Position numbers and translations under genes: made by a program. The notes below the pieces were generated by a model. That model made no database searches and had not been told where the DNA came from. It saw only the letters and a list, made by a program, of their open reading frames with translations. Shown here piece after piece: positions 5,778 to 58,045 of a stretch of DNA of 64,000 nt (the first letter of the stretch is position 1; each line of letters starts with the position of its first letter). This stretch comes from an uncultured beta proteobacterium. Its GTDB lineage: Bacteria > Pseudomonadota > Gammaproteobacteria > Burkholderiales > Eutrophovitaceae. Location: NCBI GenBank assembly GCA_963792855.1, contig CAWBXZ010000001.1, positions 260,472 to 324,471 on the forward strand, in the 5' to 3' direction.

Positions 5778-6544
5778 TGGTTGTAGAGATTTCGCGCCGC
5801 GACGAGGCGGCGCTGATTACCCTGAACCGGCCCGAAGCGCTCAACGCGCTGTCGTTTTCGATTCTGGACGAACTCGATGCGGCGTTCGAGCAGGCCGTGT
5901 CCTCGGATGCGCGCGTGCTGTTGATCACCGGTGCGGGTGACAAGGCATTTTGCGCCGGGGCCGACATCAAGGAACTGCGTCACCGCGATCTGTTGTCGCA
6001 AAAGCGCGGCGCGGAGAAAGGCCAGCGGGTGTTCTCGAAGCTCGCGACGCTGCCAATGCCGTCGGTTGCGCTCATCAACGGTTACGCGTTCGGCGGCGGT
6101 CTCGAACTGGCAATGGCCTGCACCTTCCGGCTTGCCACACCGAATGCCCGGCTGGGGCTTCCGGAAATCAAACTGGGGCTGATTCCCGGTTATGGCGGCA
6201 CGCAGCGTTTGCCGAGACTGGTCGGCGAAGCGCGCGCACTGGAGATGATCATGACGGGTCGCGCCGTCAAGCCCGATGAAGCCGAGCGGATCGGACTGAT
6301 CAACCGTATCGTCGAGGGCGATCCCATCGAACAGGCGCTGGCATTTTCCCGGGAGTTCACCGGCTACAGCCTGCCGGCGCTGGGCTTTGCACGTTCGGCA
6401 GTGGCGCGGGCAAGGGACGTTTCCCTGGAGGAAGGATTACGGGTCGAATCCGAATTGTCGACGCTGGCGTTTCGCATGAAGGACGCGGAAGAGGGTATGG
6501 CCGCCTTCGAAGAAAAACGAAAGCCGCGCTTTGCCGATGAGTAG
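5777..6544 (+). CDS. enoyl-CoA hydratase (crotonase family)
   Basis: ATG at 5777 overlaps the upstream stop (TGATG). ITLNRPEALNAL, GAGDKAFCAGADI, INGYAFGGGLELAMAC and LGLPE..LG..PG.GGTQRLPRLVG are present. Confidence 0.9.
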   Translation: MVVEISRRDEAALITLNRPEALNALSFSILDELDAAFEQAVSSDARVLLITGAGDKAFCAGADIKELRHRDLLSQKRGAEKGQRVFSKLATLPMPSVALINGYAFGGGLELAMACTFRLATPNARLGLPEIKLGLIPGYGGTQRLPRLVGEARALEMIMTGRAVKPDEAERIGLINRIVEGDPIEQALAFSREFTGYSLPALGFARSAVARARDVSLEEGLRVESELSTLAFRMKDAEEGMAAFEEKRKPRFADE

Positions 6545-54399: not shown

Positions 54400-54840
54400 T
54401 TGCTGGTGTGACTGTCTCGCCTTGTGGCGATCCAGTCATCCCTCCCTGTGGTCGGGACCGCCCTTGGGGCGTCCTGCGCGAGCGGTGCTCGCTGGTGTGT
54501 CCGGGCCGCCGTATGGCGACCGGCCATCCTTCACCGCATGCGGCTCAGGACCGCCGCTGCGCTTGTGGCGCACGGCGTCCAACACGAATGTCCACTGAGA
54601 ATACGGTTGTCGAACCCACGAAGGTTCTCAGCCTCGGCACCGCGCCAAAAATAAAAGGACCGGCTTGTGAACTGTGGTGCAGAGTTCTTTGAGGGAGGGG
54701 CAACATGCCCGCAGGGTTTGTTGTGGCGTAGGCTAATGCTTCGCGAAGCGCAGCGTTTTGCCGGAGGCAATGTGTCCGGATCGTCTTATAGGTGACCGGC
54801 CATGGTGTGACGCGCTCACGCGACTGCTGACCCGCCATCT
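54400..54840. repeat. degenerate copies of the ~175-bp structured repeat family (see 55983-56613)
   Basis: 54406-54494 aligns with the repeat core (..GTCTCGCCTTGTGGCGATCC..GGGACCGCCCTTGGGGCGTCCTGCGCGAGCGGTGCTCGCTGG). A second longer variant spans 54495-54700, and a third partial copy spans 54768-54836. Confidence 0.75.
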
Positions 54841-54890
54841 TGCCAGTCAGACCCTTCAACCGGAACGCCAGCGCGATCACCGGTGGCATT

Positions 54891-55785
54891 TCAGAACGAC
54901 ACTGTCATCACTGCGGTCGGACCCGTGAACACTGTCCGTGCTGCGCCTCGCCAATCCGGATCGTCGACTTGGAGGTCTACCACGAGGTTGCGCATGCCCA
55001 ATGCGAACCCGACATGGCGAAAAGGCTGATAAAGAACGTCGATAGCCATGCTGCGCACGTCACCAGAGTATTCACCATAGGTGAGCGACAGCCAATCCGC
55101 TCGCAGCCGAAGTGCCCACTCGTCTGTAAGCCCAAACGACCCGTAGAAATTCAGCACTGGCAAGGGGGCCAGCACGTCCCCCGCTTCAGCAACGCCACCT
55201 CCCGCCGACTGGATCGACGCTTCGATGCCTGCAACGTGCAGGCCGATGCCGATGCCAAGTTCCTTGTCCGACCGTTTGTAGAACGAATAACCGGCGCTTA
55301 CGCGAGTGTCGTAAAAATTGTATGTCGCATCGATCGAAGTGCCGATATTGAAAGTCTCATCGCCCCAATCGATAGTCGCTGTCAGCGTCTTGGTCGCGCT
55401 GCGGTTCACCCGGAAGTACTCGACATCAAGTCGCCAACGGTTGGTAATACGCCAGACAAAACCCCCGATTCCGGTCGTGTTCTGGTCATCGAGCCCAAGC
55501 ACGTTCTCGAAATCGATGACCACGCCGGTCCCGCCACCGGACCCGGACAGTCCGGCCTGGGTGCTGGTCCTGGCATGGAATCCACCGATTTCAATCAGGA
55601 ATCGATCGGAACGATCGGTGGCGCCGGAGGTCGTATCCGTTGACGCGGTCTCGGCGCGCGCTGCTGCTGCCGTCAATGCGCTAAATCAGGCTGAGCACGA
55701 GTGTCACTGCCGTGAGTGCACATCCTGTCGTGCCCTTCGATCGCCTGGTCGTTGTGGTCACGCTTGGCTTCCTGTCAGTTGTCAT
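54891..55785 (-). pseudogene. outer-membrane beta-barrel protein, signal peptide separated from the barrel by a 1-nt frameshift (true pseudogene or assembly error)
   Basis: ATG 55785 gives MTTDRKPSVTTTTRRSKGTTGCALTAVTLVLSLI, then TAG. The barrel ORF (54891-55676, ending ..TAVMTVSF) starts in the next frame as (S)ALTAAAARAETAS. Removing one T of the TTT run (plus-strand AAA 55683-55685) restores a normal signal peptide. Confidence 0.75.
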
Positions 55786-55982
55786 GTCAGTATTCTCGCC
55801 ATTGGCGCGGGAGCTAAGGCTTCACGACCATGAAGGGGGTAGCTTAAACTGAATTCTCAATGCTGTCGTACCCTTGGACGCCATGGCGAGGCGCAGCCGA
55901 GCGGACCCAAACAGGCGCAGCTGCTGTTTGCTGTCGAATAGAATCGACAAATGTGACGCCAGGCAATCCGAGTCCTAATTCG

Positions 55983-56613
55983 CCCGGCGTCCCAAAACGC
56001 AATGCGTTTTGGTCGAACCCGGGAGGGTGCTCACGCTCGACGCCGCGCCAACCAAAAAAAAGGCTCGTTACGGCGGTGGCAACTTTCTGAGAGAGGGATT
56101 GTGTCCGGATCGCCTTATGGCGACCGGCCATCCCGGGCGTTGCCCGGGACCGCCCTTCGGGCGTCCTGCGCGAGCGGTGCTCGCTGGTCGAACCCAGAGG
56201 GGTCTCACCCTCCGCACTTCGCCAAATAAAAAGGCCTCGCATTACGGGGGTGCAGAGTTATGCGAGAGAGGGATTGTGTCCGGATCGCCTTATGGCGACC
56301 GGCCATCCCTCCCTGCGGTCGGGACCGCCCTCCGGGCGTCCTGCGCGAGACATGCTCGCTGGTCGAACCCACGAGGGTTCTCACCCTCATCGCTCCGCCA
56401 ACTAAAAAGGACCCGAGTTATGAACGGGGGTGCCCATTGTCCGAGAGAGGGATTGTGTCCGGATCGCCTTATGGCGACCGGCCATCCCGGGCGTTGCCCG
56501 GGACCGCCACTCGGTCGGCGTCCTGCGCGAGCGGTGCTCGCTGGTCGAACCCAGAGGGTTCTCACCCTCGTAACTTCACCAAATAAAAAGGCCCCTGATG
56601 GGGCCCTTTTATT
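55983..56613 (-). repeat. tandem array (about 3.5 units of 171-179 bp) directly downstream of tRNA-Ser; each unit carries tRNA-Ser-like segments and a terminator-like hairpin
   Basis: Plus-strand unit starts are at 56089, 56264 and 56443, with a partial unit at 55983-56088. Each begins GAGAGAGGGATT, like the complement of the tRNA 3' end GGAGAGAGAGGGATTCGAACC at 56614. Confidence 0.9.
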
Positions 56614-56706
56614 TGGCGGAGAGAGAGGGATTCGAACCCTCGATACGGGTTGACCCCGTATAACGCCTTAGCAGGGCGCCGCCTTCAGCCACTCGGCCAT
56701 CTCTCC
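56614..56706 (-). tRNA. tRNA-Ser (anticodon GCU), CCA encoded
   Basis: GGAGAGATGGCCGAGTGGCTGAAGGCGGCGCCCTGCTAAGGCGTTATACGGGGTCAACCCGTATCGAGGGTTCGAATCCCTCTCTCTCCGCCA. Class II tRNA with a long variable arm and anticodon loop CUGCUAA. Near-collinear with E. coli tRNA-Ser(GCU). Confidence 0.95.
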
Positions 56707-56776: not shown

Positions 56777-58045
56777 TCAAACCGGCAGCGCCGGCTCGGC
56801 CGGTTCGTCCAGGCCAAAGGCCTTGTGCAGGGTGCGGACGGCGAGTTCCATGTATTTCTCGTCGATGACGACTGTGATCTTGATTTCCGAGGTCGACACC
56901 ATCTGGATGTTGATTCCCTCACCCGACAACGCTTCGAACATCTTGCTCGCCACGCCGACATGAGAGCGCATGCCGACGCCGACCAGTCCAAGCTTGCAGA
57001 TCTTGGAATCGCCGACTACTTCGCGCGCCCCGATTTCCTTTTGTACCTTGGCCAGGAGGTCCAGGGTTCGTTTCAGGTCGTTGCGGTGGACGGTAAACGA
57101 GAAGTCCGTGGCACCCTCGCTGCCGACGTTCTGTACGATCACGTCGACCTCGATATTGGCCTTCGCGATCGGGTCGAGAATCGCGAACGCGATTCCCGGC
57201 TTGTCGGGCACGCCAAGCACGGTGATTTTTGCTTCATCGCGGTTGAACGCGATGCCTGAGACGAGAGCGTGTTCCATCTGTGCGTCTTCCTCGTAAGTAA
57301 TCAGTGTGCCGGAGCCGGCCTCTTCATCGACGGGAATGTCGGGTTCGGTCAGACTCGACAATACGCGCAACCGTACCTTGTATTTGCCGGCAAATTCTAC
57401 CGACCGGATCTGCAGGACCTTCGAGCCCAGGCCGGCCATCTCCAGCATTTCCTCAAACGTGATCCTTTGCAGCCTGCGCGCCCCGGCGACGATTCGCGGG
57501 TCCGTTGTATACACTCCGTCGACGTCGGTGAAGATCTGGCACTCGTCGGCCTGCATTGCAGCGGCAATCGCCACGCCTGAGGTGTCCGACCCTCCGCGGC
57601 CAAGTGTGGTGATGTTGCCGTCGGCATCCACGCCCTGGAATCCCGCCACCACCACCACGCGTCCTGCTTCCAGGTCGGCACGCACATTGTGCTCGTCGAT
57701 GCTGAGGATACGGGCTTTGGTGTGCGCGCTGTCCGTCATTAACCGGATCTGACCGCCGGTATACGAGCGCGCCGGTACGCCCAGTTCCATCAAAGCCATG
57801 GAAAGCAGGCCGATGGTGACTTGCTCGCCGGTCGATGCGACCACGTCGAGCTCGCGCGGGTCCGGTTGCGACTGGATTGCCTTGGCCAGATCGATCAGCC
57901 GGTTGGTCTCGCCGGACATCGCGGAGACCACCACGATCAGGTCATTGCCGGCGCGTTTCCACTTTGCCACGCGCCGGGCGACGTTCTGGATTCGCTCGAT
58001 CGAACCGACCGAAGTGCCGCCGTATTTTTGAACGATCAGAGCCAT
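56777..58045 (-). CDS. lysC: aspartate kinase
   Basis: MALIVQKYGGTSVGS is the KYGGTS motif. VVSAMSGETNRL and two C-terminal ACT domains are present. 422 aa. Confidence 0.95.
   Translation of the reverse strand: MALIVQKYGGTSVGSIERIQNVARRVAKWKRAGNDLIVVVSAMSGETNRLIDLAKAIQSQPDPRELDVVASTGEQVTIGLLSMALMELGVPARSYTGGQIRLMTDSAHTKARILSIDEHNVRADLEAGRVVVVAGFQGVDADGNITTLGRGGSDTSGVAIAAAMQADECQIFTDVDGVYTTDPRIVAGARRLQRITFEEMLEMAGLGSKVLQIRSVEFAGKYKVRLRVLSSLTEPDIPVDEEAGSGTLITYEEDAQMEHALVSGIAFNRDEAKITVLGVPDKPGIAFAILDPIAKANIEVDVIVQNVGSEGATDFSFTVHRNDLKRTLDLLAKVQKEIGAREVVGDSKICKLGLVGVGMRSHVGVASKMFEALSGEGINIQMVSTSEIKITVVIDEKYMELAVRTLHKAFGLDEPAEPALPV

What the first reader, a model, noticed from the sequence alone, without database searches (positions are those of the whole stretch)
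54400..56613. tRNA-Ser-linked array of ~175-bp highly structured tandem repeats, each with tRNA-like segments and its own terminator-like hairpin
Directly downstream of tRNA-Ser(GCU) (minus strand) lie units of 171, 179 and 175 bp plus a partial unit. More degenerate copies lie at 54400-54840, on the other side of an OM-protein gene. Read on the tRNA strand, each unit contains GGGATGGCCGGTCGCCATAAGGCG (17/24 identical to the tRNA D-arm region GAGATGGCCGAGTGGCTGAAGGCG). Each unit ends in AATCCCTCTCTC, the tRNA T-stem/acceptor 3' strand. A hairpin plus T-run then follows, like the real tRNA terminator (GGCCCC-ATCA-GGGGCC-TTTTT). Inside each unit are several GC-rich hairpins (GCGAGC-GGTG-CTCGC, GGGC-GTT-GCCC, and a stem whose loop contains TTCG). 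In the partial unit the GCGAGC hairpin is replaced at the same position by an unrelated perfect hairpin (CCAAAACGC-AAT-GCGTTTTGG). That argues structure is selected rather than sequence. The layout parallels the E. coli tyrT locus, where a ~178-bp unit containing the tRNA 3' end is tandemly repeated and yields the rtT RNA. These may be tRNA-co-transcribed small RNAs or recombination products.
Basis: partly seen in the sequence, partly recalled or inferred. Interest (0 to 1): 0.7.

Follow-up and report, generated by a model that had tools for sequence, protein, structure and literature searches.

The report
tRNA-Ser-linked structured tandem repeats, RtT-like
Just downstream of a serine tRNA gene lies a real array of about 175-bp repeats, each carrying scraps of that tRNA plus a conserved run of hairpins; it is a rare betaproteobacterial counterpart of the poorly understood E. 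coli tyrT/RtT repeats, and its function is unproven.

Summary
Units of 171, 179 and 175 bp plus a truncated unit follow tRNA-Ser(GCU). Decayed copies lie beyond a 261-aa ORF, which sits inside one unit.

The family is rare and lineage-restricted: about 14 protein clusters of spurious ORFs among billions, nothing else in the 64 kb, and no plasmid, phage or viral hits.

In all five other contigs whose DNA I could read, the array follows a serine tRNA: tRNA-Ser(GCU) in two relatives, and tRNA-Ser(CGA) in two contigs, with a third from that same locus ending before the tRNA. Each unit ends at the T-loop with a copy of the local tRNA's 3' end. Each also carries a T-arm-like hairpin whose stem matches the local tRNA.

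A roughly 100-nt core of four hairpins is conserved with compensatory changes and whole-stem swaps (92.7% paired; 0 of 500 shuffles reach it). G·U pairs and a conserved tandem G·A weakly favour the tRNA-sense strand.

Rfam's RtT model does not match. The layout nevertheless equals E. coli tyrT/RtT, and there is weak, orientation-specific sequence similarity.

Best reading: RtT-like repeats made by recombination at the tRNA 3' end, probably yielding tRNA-sense structured RNAs. Main rival: relics of integrase att sites.

The parts
56614..56706 (-). tRNA-Ser(GCU) gene; the array starts at its 3' end
   Evidence: ARAGORN; Rfam tRNA 59.8 bits
56586..56613 (.). The tRNA's own bidirectional intrinsic terminator: GGCCCC-TGAT-GGGGCC flanked by A and T tracts. 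It forms the centre of a 42-nt imperfect palindrome.
   Evidence: Terminator scan; inverted repeat I2
56554..56595 (+). Inverted partial copy of the tRNA 3' half (T-arm-like, acceptor-like, CCA and A-tract), 74% complementary to 56600-56641
   Evidence: the repeat finder I1-I3; blastn E=5.9e-5
56443..56613 (-). Unit U3 (171 bp), proximal to the tRNA
   Evidence: TRF; nhmmer 6.8e-59; covariance-model core hit 56448-56551, 114 bits
56264..56442 (-). Unit U2 (179 bp). P2 is a variant, and GGAGGGATGGCCG matches the tRNA 5' end at 12 of 13 positions.
   Evidence: 110.7 bits
56089..56263 (-). Unit U1 (175 bp)
   Evidence: 123.9 bits
56089..56100 (-). Copy of the tRNA 3' end from the T-loop onward (AATCCCTCTCTC) that closes U1. 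The same 12-mer lies at 56264-56275 and 56443-56454.
   Evidence: Sequence; alignment A1
56105..56127 (-). Hairpin P1 of U1 (CCGGUCGCC-AUAA-GGCGAUCCGG). It shows array-specific compensatory states.
   Evidence: (helix 6, 100% paired, 2 pairs with double changes)
56134..56146 (-). Hairpin P2 of U1. In most other units it carries a tandem G·A/A·G, and its closing pair covaries C-G to U-A.
56147..56166 (-). Hairpin P3 of U1 (GGACGCC-CGAA-GGGCGGUCC). The base is invariant; the tip is extended in other units.
56170..56184 (-). Hairpin P4 of U1, type a (GCGAGC/GCUCGC). Other units carry unrelated stems (types b and c) at this position.
   Evidence: helix 1, 4 pairs with double changes
56187..56212 (-). 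Module B of U1: the invariant GGUUCGAC box (T-arm 5' half) and a T-arm-like hairpin, GAGGG-UGAGAC-CCCUC (loop UGAGAA in U2 and U3)
   Evidence: compared with RtT
55953..56088 (-). Truncated unit U0: terminator relic, module B, P4 type b hairpin (55991-56012) and a P3-like stem (55953-55993). Unique DNA follows.
   Evidence: nhmmer hit 55999-56092; sequence
54891..55676 (-). 261-aa ORF with no Pfam match. It lies between the P3 part and the P2/P1 part of one unit.
   Evidence: ORF list; Pfam scan; sequence
54764..54830 (-). P2-like and P1 remnant, apparently the 3' part of the interrupted unit
   Evidence: nhmmer 54764-54803; weak covariance-model hit 54765-54897
54496..54699 (-). Degenerate full unit with terminator relic, P4 type c, extended P3 and extended P2
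   Evidence: nhmmer 2e-20; alignment A1 row wDeg
54403..54496 (-). Degenerate core-only unit (P4-P3-P2-P1 without module B), abutting the stop codon of the TPP-enzyme gene
   Evidence: nhmmer 4.1e-15; covariance model 57.5 bits

Best explanation
This is an RtT-like repeat family tied to the 3' end of tRNA-Ser genes.

**Anatomy of a unit, read on the tRNA strand.** Each unit consists of:
- a terminator or terminator relic;
- a T-arm-like hairpin whose stem matches the neighbouring tRNA;
- an invariant GGUUCGAC box (the 5' half of a T-arm);
- four hairpins, P4, P3, P2 and P1;
- a copy of the neighbouring tRNA's 3' end, starting in the T-loop.

**How the array arose (inferred).** It arose, and expands and contracts, by illegitimate and unequal recombination between the tRNA 3' end and its downstream copies, as proposed for E. 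coli tyrT. Templating from the adjacent tRNA keeps the tRNA-derived pieces matched to it.

**What it does (inferred).** The hairpin core is under selection as a single-stranded fold of tRNA-sense polarity. The most likely product is therefore a structured RNA of about 130-175 nt per unit. It would be made by read-through from the strong tRNA-Ser promoter and trimmed at the tRNA-like stubs by tRNA-processing nucleases. Its role, like that of RtT, is unknown; a part in tRNA or stress physiology is a guess.

**Shown:** the anatomy, the linkage to two tRNA-Ser isoacceptor genes, the conserved fold with covariation, the copy-number change between strains, and the rarity of the family.

**Inferred:** transcription, processing and function.
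For: **Linkage to serine tRNAs.**
- Related arrays follow tRNA-Ser(GCU) in L016 and L027.
- Related arrays follow tRNA-Ser(CGA) in L033 and L035.
- L034, from the same locus as L033, ends inside the array before the tRNA.
- Position and orientation are always the same.

**Unit ends follow the local tRNA.** They read AATCCC+TCTCTC at the GCU locus and AATCCC+AC at the CGA locus. The T-arm-like stem follows the local tRNA too: GAGGG/CCCTC against GTGG/CCAC.

**Conserved fold.**
- RNAalifold finds 10 of 28 pairs with compensatory changes.
- For my five-helix model, 92.7% of cells are paired, 9 pairs have double changes, 0 of 500 shuffles reach this, and slid controls give 25-48%.
- P4 has three unrelated stem types shared across arrays.

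**Strand.**
- The covariance model hits every unit on the tRNA-sense strand only.
- MFE is lower on the tRNA strand in 12 of 14 units.
- Consensus pairs show G·U 7 against A·C 3, and a tandem G·A/A·G in 10 of 14 units.
- T-runs follow the hairpins only on the tRNA strand.

**Dynamics.**
- L034 has at least 3 full units where L033 has 2, and one unit has swapped P3 and P4.
- P1 states are specific to each array.

**Parallel with RtT.**
- E. coli tyrT has a 178-bp period with 3.1 copies, and its boundary is at T-loop AATCC.
- The RtT consensus holds GGAUGAGAAcCUUCG...AGGUuCGA...AGCG...CCCGaAGggCG in the same order as the units here.
- Chained alignment gives z = 3.1-5.4 in the tRNA-sense orientation only. 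None of 3000 natural windows reach that score.
Against: - A strong intrinsic terminator separates the tRNA from the array in all arrays.
- No sigma-70-like promoter was found inside the units.
- No transcript data were available.
- The helices are almost all Watson-Crick (405 of 443 cells). The strand asymmetry is therefore small, and for the core alone the two strands fold about equally well.
- Rfam RtT does not hit the units even at a permissive threshold, and my model does not hit E. coli.
- The similarity to RtT outside the tRNA-derived pieces is weak (z = 1.3-3.5).
- Covariation events are few. Units within an array are homogenised, so they are not independent.
Confidence: 0.45

Rival explanations
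1. The units are DNA-level relics of site-specific integration. Integrative elements that target the T-loop and 3' end of tRNA-Ser genes integrated repeatedly and decayed. This would leave tandem minimal att-arm modules (CIME-like accretion), each bounded by a copy of the tRNA 3' end. The 261-aa ORF would be leftover cargo.
For: - The boundary lies exactly in the T-loop, and the identity block runs towards the tRNA 3' end. This is typical of class II tRNA-targeting integrases (PMC1762012).
- The same module occurs at two tRNA-Ser isoacceptor genes. Small changes in the attP core let an element switch isoacceptor genes (PMC1762012).
- P0127 is the C-terminal part of a tyrosine integrase (PF00589, E=1.4e-10). 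Its reading frame continues through a tRNA-3'-end-like copy and one unit into antisense tRNA-Ser(CGA).
- P0130 shows a unit flanked by a full 18-nt copy of the tRNA 3' end.
- The ORF at 54891-55676 sits inside one unit between P3 and P2, where cargo would lie between the two arms.
- The tRNA-Ser 3' flank is a synteny breakpoint in relatives.
- Tandem accretion of decayed elements at tRNA genes is known (PMC5704250).
Against: - att arms need protein-binding sites, not four hairpins with compensatory changes, stem swaps, a conserved tandem G·A and a strand bias.
- No integrase was found in the 64-kb window or beside any of the six arrays whose DNA I could read.
- In P0127 only about 60 nt separate the integrase from the tRNA-like copy, so that island does not use the unit as its arm.
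- There are no matches in phages, plasmids or viral contigs, and viral relatives of the integrase lack the unit.
- 175 bp is very small for an integrating circle.
Confidence: 0.25
2. The array is a functionless by-product: tandem duplication of the tRNA 3' flank. The palindromes would be kept perfect by DNA-level template switching (quasipalindrome correction) and unit homogenisation, not by selection on a product.
For: - Helices are almost entirely Watson-Crick, and both strands fold about equally for the core.
- Units within an array are homogenised.
- Internal terminators decay, and the outermost copies are degenerate.
- The array is absent from several close relatives: L017, L025, L028, L030.
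Against: - The core is conserved at 63-89% identity between different organisms, and at 63-88% between the two tRNA-Ser loci.
- Blocks such as GGUUCGAC, GGACGCC, GGCGGUCC and GGAUGGC are invariant in 14 units.
- Three unrelated P4 stems persist across arrays at the same position.
- Template switching cannot produce such stem swaps or the conserved tandem G·A.
Confidence: 0.15
3. The array is a terminator or insulator stack. The repeated hairpin-plus-T-run modules would shield downstream genes from read-through out of the very strong tRNA promoter.
For: - Every unit keeps a T-run on the tRNA strand after a hairpin or hairpin relic.
- Internal terminator-like sites pass the scan in L035.
- The arrays sit between a tRNA gene and protein genes in all loci.
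Against: - In the window the internal terminators fail the scan.
- The best-conserved part is the non-terminator core P4-P1, which has no T-runs.
- This reading does not explain the tRNA-derived pieces or the restriction to tRNA-Ser.
Confidence: 0.08

Closest known systems
RtT RNA and the 178-bp repeats of the E. coli tyrT operon (Rfam RF00391)
   Same: - Tandem units of about 175-178 bp lie directly 3' of a tRNA gene in the tRNA orientation.
- Each unit ends with a copy of the tRNA 3' end that starts at the same T-loop position: AATCC....
- Each unit has a T-arm-like hairpin with a (A)UGAGAA loop whose stem matches the cognate tRNA. A GGUUCGA box and a run of GC-rich hairpins follow.
- There is weak, orientation-specific sequence similarity.
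   Different: - The Rfam model scores about 135 bits on the E. coli units but gives nothing on these units. My model gives nothing on E. coli.
- The tRNA is Ser, at two isoacceptor genes, not Tyr. The host is an uncultured betaproteobacterium, not an enterobacterium.
- A strong terminator sits between the tRNA and the array, which is not so in tyrT as far as I recall.
- The 3' half (P2 and P1) has no counterpart in RtT.
- The tRNA 3' copy is 6-18 nt long rather than 19.
Tandem accretion of decayed integrative elements (CIMEs) at tRNA or tmRNA genes
   Same: - The modules lie at the 3' end of a tRNA gene and are bounded by direct copies of the tRNA 3' end.
- One contig has an integrase fragment next to a unit.
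- The concept is described in PMC5704250.
   Different: - Units are 175 bp rather than kilobases, with no genes.
- No integrase lies beside any array whose DNA I could read.
- The units carry a conserved multi-hairpin fold with covariation.
REP/BIME and MITE-type intergenic palindromic repeats
   Same: GC-rich palindromic modules in intergenic DNA, sometimes in tandem.
   Different: - They are not dispersed. There is no other copy in 64 kb and none in the flanks of the other loci.
- Only about 14 protein clusters of spurious ORFs exist among billions.
- The arrays are always at a tRNA-Ser 3' end wherever the context could be read.
- No terminal inverted repeats or target duplications were seen.
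tRNA 3' external transcribed spacer RNAs (for example 3'ETS-leuZ, from my own knowledge)
   Same: A stable RNA is derived from the region just 3' of a tRNA and released by tRNA processing. This is the route proposed here.
   Different: Those are single short trailers that end at the operon terminator. They are not tandem 175-bp structured units lying beyond a terminator.

Membership tests
RtT RNA (RF00391) | Matches the Rfam covariance model at or above the gathering score (45 bits) | tested here: not met
   There is no RtT hit at gathering or at the permissive E-value threshold on the window or on single units. The positive control, E. coli tyrT, gives 4 hits of 133-138 bits.
RtT RNA (RF00391) | Tandem units of about 178 bp immediately 3' of a tRNA gene, each ending in a copy of the tRNA 3' end | tested here: met
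   Period 175, 2.8 copies. The 12-nt copy AATCCCTCTCTC closes each unit. The E. coli layout was checked.
RtT RNA (RF00391) | Linked to tRNA-Tyr in Enterobacteria | tested here: not met
   Linked to tRNA-Ser(GCU) and tRNA-Ser(CGA). The closest aspartokinase relatives that carry a name are labelled Betaproteobacteria or Burkholderiales MAGs; one is labelled Gammaproteobacteria.
RtT RNA (RF00391) | RNA released by processing of the tRNA operon transcript | not testable with these tools
   No expression data. A terminator lies between the tRNA and the array.
REP/MITE-type dispersed repeat | Many copies at unrelated intergenic sites of the genome | tested here: not met
   The model finds no copy in the window outside 54403-56551, nor elsewhere in 165 kb of related loci. 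The family is rare in protein collections. The whole source genome could not be scanned.
Integrase att-site array / CIME | Direct repeats of the tRNA 3' end bound each module | tested here: met
   Copies of 12 nt (window), 6-8 nt (L033, L035) and about 18 nt (inferred from P0130).
Integrase att-site array / CIME | A cognate tyrosine or serine recombinase gene beside the array or in the element | tested here: inconclusive
   tblastn with two integrase queries finds none in the window, and none lies beside L016, L027 or L033-L035. One unrelated contig has an integrase fragment next to a unit.
Integrase att-site array / CIME | The same att region is present in a free phage, plasmid or ICE | tested here: not met
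   No match in phages, plasmids or IMG/VR.
tRNA gene or pseudogene | Cloverleaf detectable by ARAGORN or the Rfam tRNA model | tested here: not met
   Only the two true tRNAs are found. Units share only fragments with tRNA-Ser(GCU), with p of about 0.001-0.03.
Integron attC array | R''/R' core sites (RYYYAAC ... GTTRRRY) and an intI gene | tested here: not met
   No such core sites are seen by eye in the conserved blocks of alignment A1. No integrase is found in the window.

The most novel reading that the evidence does not exclude
The units could be miniature self-propagating elements built on a tRNA mimic. In this reading a roughly 175-bp module copies itself to the 3' end of serine tRNA genes by crossover in the palindromic T-loop (TTCGAA). 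It re-templates its tRNA-like ends from each new host tRNA, and it can carry cargo between hairpins P3 and P2, as the 261-aa ORF does. RtT of E. coli would then be a distant, domesticated relative, making this an old proteobacterial class of tRNA-operon parasites or partners.
Probability: 0.15. Interest if true: 0.8.

Novelty: new variant of a known kind. Interest (0 to 1): 0.55.

Why it matters
RtT has been known since 1991 and still has no clear function. It has been treated as an enterobacterial oddity of one tRNA-Tyr operon.

A structurally parallel, possibly related repeat family at serine tRNA genes of uncultured Betaproteobacteria would show that such repeats are a recurrent product of tRNA 3' ends. 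It also has a conserved hairpin core, several unit subtypes and copy-number change between strains.

This offers comparative material to define the conserved fold, to test whether the RNAs are made and processed, and to ask whether T-loop recombination (integrase-driven or not) builds them.

A practical point: these arrays break metagenome assemblies and produce spurious ORFs in protein databases.

Tried and rejected
**Searches that led nowhere.**
- The exact-pattern scans of genome contigs (18-mer) and metagenome contigs (20-mer) returned only chance single hits. The patterns were too specific: L016 and L027 differ at those positions.
- Exact-protein look-ups for window genes and for the 100% identical aspartokinase P0001 found no contig. 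The source genome could therefore not be scanned.
- The viral scan for the P1 region gave nothing. Viral relatives of the P0127 integrase carry neither a unit nor a tRNA.
- Plasmid and phage BLAST gave nothing.

**Readings rejected.**
- Protein-coding. The periods of 171, 175 and 179 bp are not multiples of 3, so the long ORF changes frame from unit to unit, and it has no Pfam match.
- tRNA pseudogene or two-piece tmRNA. ARAGORN and Rfam find nothing.
- A plus-strand tRNA-like 3' end (T-arm, acceptor, CCA). This is better explained as the inverted copy that extends the terminator palindrome.
- The T-arm-like hairpin CUGG-GUUCGA-CCAG. Its 3' arm is not conserved.
- The long-range GUUCG/CGGAC helix from RNAalifold. 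It is invariant, so untestable, and it conflicts with P1.
- Integron attC, CRISPR, and a dispersed REP or MITE.

**What did work.** Searching protein databases with the spurious ORFs read across the repeats was the route that found the other arrays.
Full report
**1. The observation**

The window holds tRNA-Ser(GCU) at 56614-56706 on the minus strand. It lies downstream of an aspartokinase gene (56777-58045, minus strand). Tandem Repeats Finder reports a 175-bp period with 2.8 copies at 56089-56594, and the repeat finder gives spacings of 175 and 179.

- I set the unit boundaries at the 12-mer AATCCCTCTCTC read on the tRNA strand. This gives U3 56443-56613, U2 56264-56442 and U1 56089-56263.
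- A truncated unit, U0, spans about 55953-56088.
- nhmmer and a covariance model also find decayed units at 54403-54496 and 54496-54699, and a remnant at 54764-54830. These lie beyond a 261-aa ORF (54891-55676) that has no Pfam match.
- No other copy exists in the 64 kb.

The one overstatement concerns the internal 'terminators'. In the window only the tRNA's own terminator passes a consensus scan. Internal units in L035 do pass it.

**2. Relatives**

Two exact-pattern scans of the public collections gave only chance hits. Two other routes worked.

*Aspartokinase relatives.* The closest named ones are mostly labelled Betaproteobacteria or Burkholderiales MAGs. Through them I obtained two orthologous arrays after tRNA-Ser(GCU):
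- L016 (94% aspartokinase identity) and L027 (90%); both contigs end inside the array.
- Relatives at 88-92% identity (L017, L025, L028, L030-L032) have unrelated DNA after the tRNA.

*Spurious ORFs.* Searching protein databases with the 214-aa ORF that runs across the repeats found three more contigs.
- In L033 and L035 the array abuts tRNA-Ser(CGA), a different isoacceptor, in the same position and orientation.
- L034 is the same locus as L033 and ends inside the array.

*Rarity.*
- phmmer against 1.84 billion representative proteins gave only 9 hits.
- A search with tRNA-sense frames gave 5 more clusters.
- Plasmids, phages and viral contigs gave nothing.

The family is rare, lineage-restricted and tied to serine tRNA genes. 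It is not a dispersed REP or MITE.

**3. Anatomy**

Fourteen units were aligned on the tRNA strand (A1). They share these invariant blocks:
- GGUUCGAC
- GGACGCC
- GGCGGUCC
- GGAUGGC (GGAUGGCCGG in 12 of the 14 units)
- CCGG, then CACA (CCGGACACAAUCCC in most units)

Hairpins separate these blocks.

*tRNA-derived pieces.*
- The unit ends in the T-loop with a copy of the local tRNA's 3' end: AATCCC+TCTCTC at the GCU locus and AATCCC+AC at the CGA locus.
- By inference from the protein P0130, one unit carries about 18 nt of the tRNA 3' end.
- Module B holds a T-arm-like hairpin whose stem also matches the local tRNA: GAGGG...CCCTC against GTGG...CCAC.
- In the unit next to the tRNA, module B forms a long imperfect palindrome with the tRNA 3' half around the terminator (I1-I3; L035).
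- The segment before P1 resembles the 5' end and D-arm of tRNA-Ser(GCU). This holds even at the CGA locus (p about 0.001-0.03), which hints that the family began at the GCU gene.

**4. Structure**

- RNAalifold finds 28 pairs, 10 of them with compensatory changes.
- For a five-helix model (P4, P3 with extension, P2, P0, P1), 92.7% of cells pair, 9 pairs have double changes, and 0 of 500 shuffles reach these values. Slid controls pair at 25-48%.
- P4 exists in three unrelated versions: GCGAGC/GCUCGC, (C)AAAACGC/GCGUUUU(G) and GGGAUGUCC/GGACAUCCC. Each recurs in several arrays.
- L033 and L034 are the same locus in two samples. They differ in unit number, and one unit has different P3 and P4.
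- P1 states are array-specific, which indicates homogenisation within arrays. Mean identity is 85% within arrays and 76% between them.

**5. Which strand**

- The covariance model hits all units in the tRNA-sense orientation only, though this follows from how it was built.
- Whole units fold better on the tRNA strand in 12 of 14 cases (-68.4 against -63.2 kcal/mol). For the core alone the two strands are close.
- In the consensus pairs there are 405 Watson-Crick cells, 7 G·U and 3 A·C. A tandem G·A/A·G in P2 is kept in 10 of 14 units. On the other strand this would be an unfavourable pyrimidine mismatch.
- T-runs follow the hairpins on the tRNA strand only.

Together this favours a tRNA-sense single strand, but not strongly.

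**6. Comparison with RtT**

*Against membership.*
- The Rfam RtT model hits the four E. coli tyrT units at about 135 bits.
- It gives nothing on these units, even when a single unit is searched at a permissive threshold.
- My model R1 finds nothing in E. coli.

Membership of RF00391 is therefore not met.

*For a shared design.*
- The E. coli repeats have a 178-bp period with 3.1 copies, and their boundary is at T-loop AATCC.
- The RtT consensus contains, in order, GGAUGAGAAcCUUCG, AGGUuCGA, AGCG and CCCGaAGggCG.
- The window units contain GGGUGAGAACCCUC, GGGUUCGA, CAGCGAG and GCCCGAAGGGCG in the same order.
- A gap-tolerant local alignment scores z = 3.1-5.4 for four of five units. The reverse complement scores at background, and none of 3000 natural windows reach that score.
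- With the tRNA-derived parts removed, z falls to 1.3-3.5.

I read this as the same design, with possible but unproven distant homology.

**7. The integrase lead**

- P0127 (contig of 1061 bp) is the C-terminal part of a tyrosine integrase (PF00589). Its reading frame runs on through a tRNA-3'-end-like copy and one unit into antisense tRNA-Ser(CGA).
- T-loop crossover and isoacceptor switching are known for tRNA-targeting integrases (PMC1762012). Tandem accretion of decayed elements at tRNA genes is also known (PMC5704250).
- The 261-aa ORF lies inside a unit between P3 and P2, where cargo would lie between the two att arms.

Against this reading:
- No integrase lies in the window or beside any array I could read.
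- Only about 60 nt separate the P0127 integrase from the tRNA-like copy, so that island does not use the unit as its arm.
- att arms would not need covarying hairpins.

**8. Verdict**

The most likely account (about 0.45) is an RtT-like repeat family. It would be built by recombination at the tRNA-Ser 3' end, with a selected tRNA-sense hairpin core that is probably expressed by read-through and processed. Its function is unknown.

| Rival reading | Confidence |
|---|---|
| Relics of integrase att sites | 0.25 |
| Functionless duplication kept palindromic at the DNA level | 0.15 |
| Terminator or insulator stack | 0.08 |

Transcript data and a whole-genome census would decide between them.

Noticed in passing
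It starts at TTG and has no signal peptide. A hydrophobic, signal-like stretch lies just upstream in another frame and ends in a TAG codon, so the gene may be frameshifted.
   Followed up: partly
window 54940-54953 and 55884-55897: A perfect 14-nt inverted repeat (GCTGCGCCTCGCCA / TGGCGAGGCGCAGC) brackets most of the 261-aa ORF. Possible ends of an inserted segment.
   Followed up: no
L016 (ends at 5813), L027 (ends at 2368), L034 (ends at 2638): Three independent metagenome contigs stop inside the repeat array. These repeats break short-read assemblies. Gene callers also turn them into spurious ORFs, such as P0121-P0123 and P0131.
   Followed up: yes
L025 268-531; L030 9533-9667; L031 1843-2700; L032 76-312: Relatives carry an integrase gene or fragment upstream of lysC. 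In L031 and L032 it is a called integrase gene. In L025 and L030 it is a tblastn match. tRNA-Arg(ACG) occupies this position in the window, L016, L017 and L027. The window has no match to those integrase queries.
   Followed up: partly
L035 5144-5236 and 6950-8245: The tRNA-Ser(CGA) that carries an array lies 1.7 kb from the seryl-tRNA synthetase gene serS. This may be coincidental synteny.
   Followed up: no
L033 1992-2152 compared with L034 2262-2383: At the same position of the same locus in two samples, one unit has entirely different P3 and P4 hairpins while its flanks are nearly identical. Unit subtypes are exchanged as cassettes.
   Followed up: partly
protein P0128 (457 aa, contig of 97 kb): An in-frame tandem repeat with a 67-aa period matched the query only weakly. 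It is probably an unrelated repeat, not a member of this family.
   Followed up: no
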